A DNA stretch of 64,000 nucleotides, from NCBI GenBank assembly GCA_951406725.2, contig OX597834.1, positions 45,942,001 to 46,006,000 on the forward strand. The letters are read 5' to 3'. The first letter of the stretch is position 1. Each line of letters opens with the position of its first letter. Source of the DNA: Octopus vulgaris. Taxonomy: Eukaryota. Shown here piece by piece: positions 58,779-61,358 of the stretch. A program made the position numbers.

Positions 58779-59498
58779 GATGTTATTATTATTATTATCA
58801 TCATCATCATTATCATCGTCATAGTTGTTGTCGTTGTCGCCGTCGCCGTCATCATCATCATCATCATGGTATTTATATTATCTTTCTTCAGCTTCTACGT
58901 CGTCTTCATCTTCTTCCCTTCTTTCCCCTTCCCCTCCTCATCCCTCTCCTCCTCCACCCCCTCCGATCGTCATACTTCCTAATCTTCAATTTCTTCTTCT
59001 TCTTCATATTCTCTCGAATATTCCTCCTGTGTCGTGCACATGTTAGCCTCTTTCGCCATTGTTGTTTTTGTTGCTGCTGTTGTTGTTCGTGGTGTTGCAG
59101 TTGTTGCTGTAGTAGTAATTGTTGTTGTTGTGTAATCTTTGAATTCTTTCTTCTCCAATGCTGCCAACAATGACCAATAAGCATCATTAGAATTCTATAG
59201 GTTGCTATGGTAACGGTCAGTCGTACAAGAACAGCTGCCGCTCACTCGACTCTTTGCATCGCAGCAGACGCTTTCCTTCCTATGTTTCACTCTTTTTCTC
59301 TTCTAAGATGTTTTGTCTCTCTCTACACGTAGCTCGGTGTAATTGTGTGTGTATGGGAATGTTACTGCGCGCGCACGTGTGCGTATGTATGTATGTGTGT
59401 ATGCATGCATGCATGTATGTATGTGTGTGGGTGCATATATATGTGTGTGTGTGTATGTGTGTGTTTAGGTGTATTGTGGGTGTGTGTGTGTGCATGTG

Positions 59499-59552
<54 letters not shown>

Positions 59553-59560
59553 TCGATAGT

Positions 59561-59612
<52 letters not shown>

Positions 59613-61358
59613 AACAGAGAGAGAGATCATATTGATTAAGTATTTCAGTCATTGGAGTGCGGTCATCCTGTAGGATATAGTCGAACCATTCGACAGCATA
59701 CTTGGTCTGGCACTAATTCCATCGGTGTTTTTTGCCGAACCACTAGGGATATGACATAGTAGAAGTTATTTACCGAAGGTTCCACGCAATGGGAGTGAAC
59801 CCGGAACCCTGTAGTTTGGAAGAAAACGTCTTATCATTTAGCGGCAACTGCTACTTGATAGATACATGCATGTGCGCGCGCGCGTGTGTGAACCAGTGTG
59901 TTATATGATGATATTGATATTACGACTACACACTTGCCTTCCTCAATCATCAGACAAAGTTGGTCATGGATTTTGTTTTCCGATTTATTATCGGACATAG
60001 TTTCTGGCGTCGCATTACGAGTTTCAACAAAGTTTTCAGTGGATATTTCACTCCAAATTAATACTGAATTTTGTTGATACAAGTTATTTATACATATGTA
60101 TTGCGTTGATAAGAATCAAGTCGGTGAAGTTTACGTTTGTTGGCAACATTGGAGAAGAAAGAATTCAAAGATTACAGAAGTTTACCCTTGTGGAAATTGT
60201 TTTAAAATATTGTAAACTCAAGAATGTCTACGAATACAAAAGGATTAGAAAGAACGTGTGTGAATATTGTAGTTTAAATTCTTAAGTATTTCACTGGTGG
60301 TGTTGTAATATTGTGGTGTTAAAGGTGATACTTACATAAGTGCCAGCATTTAGTGAAGTATTTTTACAAACATTACATTCGGTAAAGACATTTGTGATGA
60401 AATATATTCGCCGAAAATCTATAATTTATTAACCTTAAATCAGCGGAGAACTTATTCACTCTACAGTCATAAAAACATGCCATTGTCTCTAAAGACAAAA
60501 TATTTGTGAATCTGTATATGCGTATCGAAGTATCCGTATGTATGCAAGTGGAATGGTGCTGAACATGTACATGATTGGTTCTGTCTCTGTAATTATATTA
60601 TTCTATTCTTTTACTCGTTTCAGACATAATAAATTTCTTTAAGTGTTAACGGTTCCCAGAAGAAACGTAAATATAACGGTAAAAACAGGGAGATAAGCGA
60701 ATCTATCACACACACACACACACGCACACACACGCACATACACATACATCATACACACACACAAAAGTGTGGGTGTGTGAGTGTGTGAAGGTGCGTCACC
60801 CGGTGGTTAAAGCGTTGCACTCACGAAATTAAGATCGTAGTTTCAATTCCCACATCAGCTGCACATTGTGTTTTGAGCTAAACAGTTCATTTCACGTTGC
60901 TGCAGTTCACTCAAATGCAGACTGATAAGTTTGCACCAATCAGAAGTTTGTACCAATCACGTGGTCTAGCCAATGGCGTAGCATCATTTATAAAGCTAAA
61001 ACGATGAAAAGTGCATTTTGACCAGCGATATATGAAAAGCTCCCATTGACTGGTCGATCCCTGAATTACGAGATTTAGAATAAATATTTGTATTATATAT
61101 GTGTGTGCGTGTGTGTGTGTGCGTGTGTGTACACATATGTATATATACATATGTATGTATGTATATATATATATATATATATAAACTTTTGTATGTTTCA
61201 GTGACTGGAATGCCACCACCCTGGACCAGTGCCTTGCAGCTTTTTAACCGAGGAAATCTTATTTTCTAAACTTAGCTACTACTCCATCGAACTCCATTGT
61301 CACACTGGCAACATCGATTATCAAATTCTCAATTGTATGCATATAAATATACATATAC

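What the first reader, a model, noticed from the sequence alone, without database searches (positions are those of the whole stretch)
59131..60185. 40-bp inverted templated insertion with 9-bp duplication, creating a long-range duplex with one A.C mismatch
Seen: 60137-60176 is the reverse complement of 59131-59170 (39/40) and is flanked by GAAGTTTAC direct repeats; neither copy resembles the window's TEs. In a plus-strand transcript the only mismatch is A60146 opposite C59161. Known: locally templated inverted insertions arise by polymerase-theta or template-switch repair; ADARs favour A.C mismatches in duplexes; coleoids edit RNA extensively. Inference: a snapshot of de novo birth of an editing-complementary sequence next to a putative promoter.
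Basis: partly seen in the sequence, partly recalled or inferred. Interest (0 to 1): 0.7.

Follow-up and report, generated by a model that had tools for sequence, protein, structure and literature searches.

The report
Inverted 40-bp repair patch copied nearby
A 40-base stretch was copied backwards from about 1 kb away and pasted into a broken site, the kind of DNA-repair scar already catalogued in vertebrate genomes; nothing shows that it has a function.

Summary
60137-60176 is the reverse complement of 59131-59170 at 39 of 40 positions. It sits between two GAAGTTTAC copies, with 2 extra bases (GT) on the left. It occurs nowhere else in the window and the similarity stops sharply at its edges. 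Direct repeats abutting a 40-nt segment like this are rare here: one other locus in 43,643 non-periodic positions.

The best reading is a single, probably neutral repair event. A break, probably staggered, was patched with an inverted copy of sequence 966 bp upstream. That matches "repair-mediated duplication by capture of proximal DNA" (PMC2671141: donors on average 1.2 kb away, filler, 4-21 nt target duplications, no poly-A) or an MMBIR-like templated insertion.

It fits typical polymerase-theta insertions poorly: one 40-bp tract from a distant template. It also fits short replication-fork template switches poorly, because the return point lies behind the exit point.

Both strands are predicted to pair the arms. 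The A.C mismatch carries no weight, because any transition gives A.C on one strand and G.U on the other.

Transcription, editing, promoter, genome copy number, empty site and even the organism could not be checked. Ordinary; low interest.

The parts
59131..59170 (+). Donor arm, the presumed template. It has no abutting direct repeat. It is immediately preceded by a (TTG)n array.
   Evidence: No direct repeat of 5 nt or more within 30 nt on both sides (one search printed none). (TTG)n at 59059-59131.
60137..60176 (-). Inserted inverted copy of the donor arm, 39 of 40 identical. A60146 lies opposite C59161.
60135..60136 (+). Two filler bases (GT) between the left direct repeat and the copy. They are matched neither by the donor flank nor by the target.
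   Evidence: sequence read directly.
60126..60134 (+). Left copy of the 9-bp target duplication, GAAGTTTAC.
   Evidence: (row D12).
60177..60185 (+). Right copy of the 9-bp target duplication, GAAGTTTAC. Its first three bases, GAA, give the 2 extra matches after one mismatch that extend the homology to 43 nt.
   Evidence: (rows I21, D12).
59171..60136 (.). 966-nt spacer. It holds unique sequence (59171 to about 59330), microsatellites (59378-59627), a SINE-like repeat on the + strand (59636 to about 59890), and unique sequence up to the acceptor site.
   Evidence: tandem repeats. (67-82% matches to other SINE-like copies in the window).
57995..58730 (-). Context only: a 5'-truncated non-LTR retrotransposon fragment (end of the reverse-transcriptase ORF), in two ORFs. 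It is not part of the event.
   Evidence: ORFs. (zf-RVT, E 5.8e-5, 24.1 bits, below the 27.5 cut-off). (P0001, 989 aa, PF00078, 51% identity over 94% of the query).

Best explanation
One mutational event, most likely neutral. A chromosome break at ...GGT|GAAGTTTAC|CCTTG... was repaired by DNA synthesis that used a nearby ectopic template, 59131-59170, about 1 kb upstream and in the opposite orientation. The repair left a 40-bp inverted patch, 2 untemplated bases (GT) and a duplication of 9 bp of target.

The duplication implies one of two things. Either the break was staggered by 9 nt and both overhangs were kept or filled in, or the new strand re-annealed 9 nt behind the point where it had left.

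This is the class described in vertebrates as repair-mediated duplication by capture of proximal DNA (SDSA-like). It overlaps with MMBIR-like templated insertions. One base changed later, or was miscopied.

As a by-product, any RNA that spans both arms could form a 40-bp duplex.

Shown: the anatomy. Inferred: which arm is the copy (from the duplication), the pathway, and neutrality.
For: The homology is sharply bounded: 39 of 40 (41 of 43) identical, with flanks at shuffle level (161 of 200 and 110 of 200 shuffles score as well). There are only two copies in the window and no likeness to other repeats. A 9-bp duplication abuts only the right-hand arm, and this is rare by position. There is no poly-A/T or other tail at either end of the insert.

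PMC2671141 (abstract, section 7 with Table 1, and passages) describes matching events. 824 of 1,136 human duplicons have the donor within 5 kb, on average 1.2 kb away. None of 39 proximal cases has a poly-A tail. Junctions show filler of 1-68 nt and target duplications of 4-21 nt; 6 of 39 proximal cases have a duplication.

PMC8421209 (passages) gives the MMBIR templated-insertion signature as an insertion in inverted orientation near its template, and says priming tolerates a mismatched 3' base. Here the right junction has 2 matching bases after one mismatch.

The SINE-like repeat in the spacer is 67-82% identical to its relatives, against 97.5% between the arms. It was therefore probably already there, and the donor lay about 1 kb away at the time of the event (inference).
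Against: No empty site, allele or ortholog could be examined, so the polarity and the single-event reading are inferred.

The insert (40 bp) is shorter than anything the pipeline of PMC2671141 could see (50 bp or more; mean 162 bp).

The exact combination seen here, filler plus target duplication without microhomology, was 0 of 39 among their proximal cases. The 6 proximal cases with a duplication were: microhomology + duplication 3, microhomology + duplication + filler 2, filler + deletion + duplication 1.

Microhomology at the junctions is 0 nt on the left, and 0 nt on the right (2 nt after a mismatch). That is weak for a microhomology-primed switch.
Confidence: 0.62

Rival explanations
1. 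The pathway the reader named. Either polymerase-theta end joining with a templated insertion, or a short template switch inside one replication fork (the four-point model), produced the inverted copy.
For: The copy is inverted and lies near its template, the common signature of both processes (PMC7165422; PMC5453318). PMC8794818 (abstract) shows that such switches can create RNA stems in one step.
Against: Pol-theta insertions are 3-30 bp, single tracts are rarely over 10 bp, and templates lie in the DNA flanking the break. Here there is one 40-bp tract from 966 bp away, with no junction microhomology. In the four-point model this event has the order 3-2-4-1. Types in which point 4 precedes point 1 were not observed among 794 filtered human-chimp events.
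Confidence: 0.13
2. Both arms are pieces of a dispersed repeat or of a local transcript. The right-hand copy would be a very short retro-insertion made by a LINE endonuclease and reverse transcriptase, which would explain the 9-bp target-site duplication.
For: A target duplication of 5 bp or more is the first hallmark of LINE-mediated 'class 1' templated insertions (PMC5110952, passages). LINE and SINE-like repeats are all around. On the minus strand the donor arm is followed directly by (CAA)n, which resembles a microsatellite tail. Two extra bases at one junction are compatible with 5' truncation.
Against: The copy has no poly-A or (CAA)n tail. The target is GGT/GAAG, not TTTT/A. The 40-mer and 200 nt beside the donor match nothing else in 64 kb, including the window's other trinucleotide arrays. 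In PMC2671141, 0 of 39 duplications with a donor within 5 kb bore retroposition marks.
Confidence: 0.12
3. The two arms are the terminal inverted repeats of a 1,046-bp non-autonomous DNA transposon, 59131-60176.
For: A 40-bp inverted pair at 97.5% identity, about 1 kb apart, is the geometry of a MITE-like element.
Against: The whole unit has no target-site duplication: TTGTTGTTG on the left against GAAGTTTAC on the right. The 9-bp repeat brackets one arm only. The interior is microsatellite plus a SINE-like repeat. There is no other copy of the arm in the window.
Confidence: 0.03
4. Whatever its origin, the pair now works as an ADAR substrate: an editing-complementary sequence that directs editing at A60146 in a plus-strand transcript.
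For: Both strands' minimum-free-energy folds of 59101-60210 pair the arms in register: 41 and 40 pairs, duplex energy -60.2 and -64.5 kcal/mol. ADARs favour A opposite C (bioRxiv 10.1101/605972, passages). There is no AATAAA or ATTAAA on the plus strand between the arms.
Against: There is no evidence of transcription, exon or promoter, and ORFs over the arms have no Pfam family. A.C on one strand and G.U on the other is what any transition gives. The mismatch lies 10 bp from one end of a 40-bp helix, and the neighbours are A-A-C. In the same preprint, guides under 71 nt worked poorly with endogenous human ADAR, mid-helix mismatches worked best, UAN was the best motif, and ADARs edit many A's in a duplex promiscuously. 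The window holds much longer hairpin formers of 127-178 nt.
Confidence: 0.05
5. An assembly or sequencing artefact created the inverted insert.
For: The surroundings are very rich in microsatellites, which are hard to assemble.
Against: The junctions are clean, there is a 9-bp duplication, and the copy differs at one base. None of these is a known artefact pattern (inference). The acceptor lies in unique sequence.
Confidence: 0.03

Closest known systems
Repair-mediated duplication by capture of proximal chromosomal DNA (Pace, Sen, Batzer, Feschotte 2009, PMC2671141)
   Same: The donor is on the same chromosome about 1 kb away. There is no poly-A tail. Filler bases and a target duplication within their 4-21 nt range are present. 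The copy is sharply bounded.
   Different: The insert is 40 bp, below their 50-bp detection floor (their mean was 162 bp). There is no junction microhomology. The organism is an unnamed non-vertebrate. No empty site was seen here. Their supplementary figure of junctions (PDF) was not seen.
MMBIR-like templated insertions (MMB-TI; Osia et al. 2021, PMC8421209)
   Same: The insertion is inverted relative to a nearby template. One junction shows 'microhomeology', 2 matches after a mismatch.
   Different: The yeast templates lay within 100 bp, whereas here the distance is 966 bp. 80% of their cancer junctions had 2-12 bp of microhomology, whereas here it is 0 at both junctions.
Short template-switch mutations, four-point model (Loytynoja and Goldman 2017, PMC5453318; Monttinen and Loytynoja 2022, PMC8794818)
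   Same: A reverse-complement copy creates a perfect stem in a single step.
   Different: Those events are local clusters, with switch points 1 and 4 within 30 bp of the cluster. They were never seen with point 4 before point 1. Here the return lies 9 nt behind the exit and the template is about 1 kb away.
Polymerase-theta templated insertions (Carvajal-Garcia et al. 2020, PMC7165422)
   Same: An inverse-repeat insertion at a repaired break.
   Different: Those insertions are 3-30 bp, tracts are rarely over 10 bp, and the template is next to the break. Here there is a single 40-bp tract from 966 bp away.
Class 1 templated sequence insertion polymorphisms (LINE-mediated; PMC5110952)
   Same: A target-site duplication of 5 bp or more flanks a short templated insert.
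   Different: There is no poly-A tract, no polyadenylation signal and no TTTT/A target.

Membership tests
Repair-mediated duplication (proximal capture) | Donor on the same chromosome within 5 kb of the acceptor | tested here: met
   966 nt between the arms.
Repair-mediated duplication (proximal capture) | Inserted sequence present at only one other place in the genome | not testable with these tools
   Two copies in the 64-kb window. No eukaryotic genome collection was open.
Repair-mediated duplication (proximal capture) | No poly-A/T tail; junctions with filler, microhomology, deletion or target duplication | tested here: met
   No tail, 2-nt filler, 9-bp duplication.
Repair-mediated duplication (proximal capture) | Empty site at the orthologous locus | not testable with these tools
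   No related genome could be fetched. The acceptor flanks have no paralog in the window.
Polymerase-theta templated insertion | Insert of 3-30 bp built from tracts rarely over 10 bp | tested here: not met
   One uninterrupted 40-bp tract. Criterion from PMC7165422.
Polymerase-theta templated insertion | Template in the DNA flanking the break | tested here: not met
   The template is 966 bp away. The paper notes that a minority of insertions use distal templates.
Four-point short template switch | [quoted passage not shown] | tested here: met
Four-point short template switch | Return point (4) does not precede exit point (1), as in every observed event type | tested here: not met
   The 9-bp duplication puts point 4 nine nt before point 1.
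MMBIR-like templated insertion | Inverted insertion close to its template | tested here: inconclusive
   The insertion is inverted, but the template is 966 bp away against 100 bp or less in the yeast signature.
MMBIR-like templated insertion | Microhomology at both junctions | tested here: not met
   Left junction 0 nt, with 2 filler bases. Right junction 0 nt, or 2 nt after one mismatch.
LINE-mediated insertion (class 1 TSIP) | Target-site duplication of 5 bp or more | tested here: met
   9 bp.
LINE-mediated insertion (class 1 TSIP) | Poly-A tract and TTTT/A target | tested here: not met
   Neither is present. Criteria from PMC5110952.
TIR DNA transposon / MITE | Target-site duplication flanking the whole element | tested here: not met
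   TTGTTGTTG against GAAGTTTAC.
TIR DNA transposon / MITE | Multiple copies with the same termini | tested here: inconclusive
   No other copy in the window. The rest of the genome was not searchable.
ADAR editing-complementary sequence | Stable duplex between the site and its complement in one RNA | tested here: met
   In silico only: the arms pair in the minimum-free-energy folds of both strands.
ADAR editing-complementary sequence | Both arms transcribed in one RNA, with A-to-G differences between RNA and DNA | not testable with these tools
   No expression data.

The most novel reading that the evidence does not exclude
If the window is from a coleoid and lies inside a transcribed intron or UTR, this repair patch would be a dated, single-step birth of a long-range 40-bp dsRNA helix. 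It would then be a new ADAR substrate created by break repair rather than by a transposon pair, with the template and the scar both still legible.
Probability: 0.05. Interest if true: 0.55.

Novelty: new member of a known kind. Interest (0 to 1): 0.22.

Why it matters
It is a clean, fully legible example of a templated inverted insertion: donor, filler, target duplication and one later or copied-in difference are all visible. It shows that this mutation class, catalogued mainly in primates, yeast and tumours, also leaves scars in this repeat-rich invertebrate-like genome. Such events can create long-range RNA helices in one step. On its own the site is a neutral scar with no demonstrated function.

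Tried and rejected
A longer decayed inverted duplication was rejected, because the flanks align no better than shuffles.

A longer or tandem direct duplication was rejected, because nothing is shared beyond the 9 nt.

Likeness to the SINE-like family was rejected. The only touch is a 16-of-18 T-rich match, 59133-59150 to 51903-51920, at E = 0.46.

Coding exons over the arms: 18 ORFs were scanned against Pfam. Only the LINE tail ORF scored (zf-RVT below cut-off, plus two weaker chance-level families). ORFs covering the arms had none.

Known RNA families and tRNAs: 0 matches each.

Naming the organism failed. Two protein searches with the LINE ORF gave one unnamed hit each, P0001 and P0002. The Atlas gave unnamed eukaryotic clusters and one Mollusca-labelled cluster at rank 17. 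A full-text search for a 19-nt stretch of the SINE-like repeat found 0 papers.

A second templated insertion was sought. The only other abutting direct repeat, at 53664/53718, has an insert with no second copy in the window.

The bacterial promoter/terminator scan was not used, because it does not apply to a eukaryote.

A paper search for cephalopod editing structure returned nothing that I used.

Full report
**1. The observation**

Reading 58900-60400 and the repeat finder (row I21) show that 59128-59170 and 60137-60179 are 95% complementary over 43 nt, with 966 nt between them. The only difference is C59161 against A60146.

GAAGTTTAC stands at 60126-60134 and 60177-60185. The right copy begins at the first base after the 40-nt homology. 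The left copy is followed by two unmatched bases, GT, before the homology starts.

The window has no N and is 34% G+C.

**2. Is it more than chance?**

The 40-mer with up to 3 mismatches occurs twice in the window, and 0 of 100 shuffles had any match.

The 9-mer needs care. In a free local alignment of the two 100-nt flanks it is unremarkable, since 53 of 200 shuffles reach its score. Its position is what is rare:
- Non-low-complexity exact 9-mers at spacing 51 occur at 3 positions in the window, this one included.
- Of 43,643 40-nt segments in non-periodic context, 6 have 9-mers abutting within 0-3 nt. Three of those 6 are this site and three are one other site.
- That other site, 53664/53718, has an insert with no second copy in the window.

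The 13-of-15 extension of the direct repeat (row D12) is not meaningful, because 1,635 of 2,000 shuffles do as well.

**3. What surrounds it**

- Left of the donor arm lies a (TTG)n array at 59059-59131.
- Further left, on the minus strand, is the tail of a 5'-truncated non-LTR retrotransposon, in ORFs 58470-58877 and 57995-58459. It scores zf-RVT at 24.1 bits, below the 27.5 cut-off. It has an unnamed 989-aa relative with PF00078 at 51% identity.
- The spacer holds unique sequence, then microsatellites at 59378-59627, then a SINE-like repeat on the plus strand from 59636 to about 59890. That repeat is 67-82% identical to other copies in the window.
- The acceptor site lies in unique sequence from about 59895 to 60590 that has no paralog in the window.
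- No Rfam family and no tRNA was found in the window.
- Of 18 ORFs scanned against Pfam, those covering the arms (58909-59241 minus, 60001-282 plus) and the spacer (59191-556 plus, 59837-60115 minus) have no family.
- No call names the organism.

**4. What it is not**

- It is not a decayed longer inverted duplication. The flanks of the two arms align at shuffle level: 161 of 200 and 110 of 200 shuffles score as well.
- It is not part of the window's repeats. Among 15 non-simple pairs at 88% identity or more in the window, the others are SINE-like copies or self-complementary stretches.
- It is not a TIR element. The unit 59131-60176 has no target duplication, with TTGTTGTTG on one side and GAAGTTTAC on the other. 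The 9-bp repeat brackets one arm only.

**5. Mechanism**

The duplication marks 60137-60176 as the inserted copy and 59131-59170 as the template. This polarity is an inference.

The anatomy is an inverted 40-bp tract, 2 filler bases, a 9-bp target duplication, no tail, and a donor about 1 kb away. This is that of repair-mediated duplication by capture of proximal DNA (PMC2671141; I read the abstract, section 7 with Table 1, and passages). In that study:
- 824 of 1,136 human duplicons have donors within 5 kb, on average 1.2 kb away.
- 0 of 39 proximal cases carry poly-A.
- Junctions show filler of 1-68 nt and duplications of 4-21 nt. Six of 39 proximal cases have a duplication.

Against a perfect fit:
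- Their pipeline saw only inserts of 50 bp or more.
- The exact combination of filler plus duplication without microhomology was 0 of 39 among proximal cases.

The MMBIR-like templated-insertion signature (PMC8421209, passages) is also close. It describes an inverted insertion near its template and priming that tolerates a mismatched 3' base. However, microhomology here is 0 nt at the left junction, and 0 nt at the right (2 nt after a mismatch).

**6.

Polymerase-theta insertions are 3-30 bp, made of tracts rarely over 10 bp, and copied from DNA flanking the break (PMC7165422, passages).

In the four-point model of short template switches this event has the order 3-2-4-1. Types in which point 4 precedes point 1 were not seen among 794 filtered human-chimp events (PMC5453318, passages). 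Supplementary Figure S1 of that paper, which lists all types, was not seen.

The duplication therefore points to a staggered break whose overhangs were kept, or to re-annealing behind the exit point. It does not point to a simple in-fork switch.

A LINE-mediated origin would explain the duplication, but it lacks the tail and the target motif (PMC5110952, passages).

**7. Timing (inference)**

The arms differ by 2.5%, while the SINE-like repeat between them differs by 18-33% from its relatives. The repeat was therefore probably already in place, and the donor was about 1 kb away when it was copied.

**8. Consequence for RNA**

Folding 59101-60210 pairs the arms in register on both strands. There are 41 pairs in the plus-strand fold and 40 in the minus-strand fold. 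Duplex energy is -60.2 kcal/mol with the A.C mismatch on the plus strand, and -64.5 kcal/mol with G.U on the minus strand.

The A.C mismatch is not evidence of anything. A transition in one arm always gives A.C on one strand and G.U on the other.

ADAR's liking for A opposite C is real (bioRxiv 10.1101/605972, passages). The same text makes this site a mediocre candidate:
- With endogenous human ADAR, guides under 71 nt worked poorly, whereas this helix is 40 bp.
- Mid-helix mismatches worked best, whereas the mismatch here lies 10 bp from one end of the helix.
- UAN was the best motif, whereas the context here is A-A-C.
- ADARs edit many A's in a duplex promiscuously.

The window also holds far longer hairpin formers of 127-178 nt.

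No transcript, promoter or editing could be tested. That coleoids edit heavily is recalled, not taken from any call; the search for it gave nothing that I used.

**9. Verdict**

The feature is real and cleanly legible. It is best read as a neutral repair patch of a known kind. The functional reading is not excluded, but nothing obtained here supports it.

Still unchecked: genome copy number, the empty site, read support, expression, and the organism.

Noticed in passing
18787-18963; 19935-20074; 13319-13444; 29104-29129: Self-complementary (foldback) stretches of 178 nt (97.8%), 140 nt (90%), 127 nt (88%) and 26 nt (100%). The first two lie beside (TA)n and both carry AAAACCACTAT near their outer ends, so they may belong to one palindromic MITE-like family.
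   Followed up: partly
59636-59890, 6380-6567, 9027-9177, 15098-15241, 36503-36671, 38317-38500, 51571-51913, 62865-62989: A SINE-like family with a shared head (TTTCAGTCATT...GCGGCCAT...) and microsatellite tails, present in both orientations. One copy lies in the spacer between the arms. No tRNA or Rfam match.
   Followed up: partly
57995-58877 (minus strand): Tail of a non-LTR retrotransposon ORF2, split into two ORFs and cut off on its 5' side by trinucleotide repeats. Its nearest relatives are unnamed (P0001 at 51% identity, P0002 at 47%).
   Followed up: partly
60138-60148 against 59159-59169: The single difference between the arms makes TGTTG-G-CAACA a perfect 5+5 mini-palindrome in the copy, while the donor has TGTTG-G-CAGCA. 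This could be chance, or a quasi-palindrome correction during the same event. It was not weighed.
   Followed up: no
59171-59200: Directly after the donor arm there is a CCAAT string and, about 20 nt on, TCTATAGG. No eukaryotic promoter test was available.
   Followed up: no
53664-53673 and 53718-53727: A 10-nt direct repeat (GTAGGATATT) brackets 44 nt that have no second copy in the window. It is the only other abutting-repeat site in non-periodic sequence.
   Followed up: yes
whole window: Microsatellites are extremely dense. 1,565 of 63,900 40-nt segments have abutting 9-mers purely because of periodic sequence, and most long ORFs are translated repeats.
   Followed up: no
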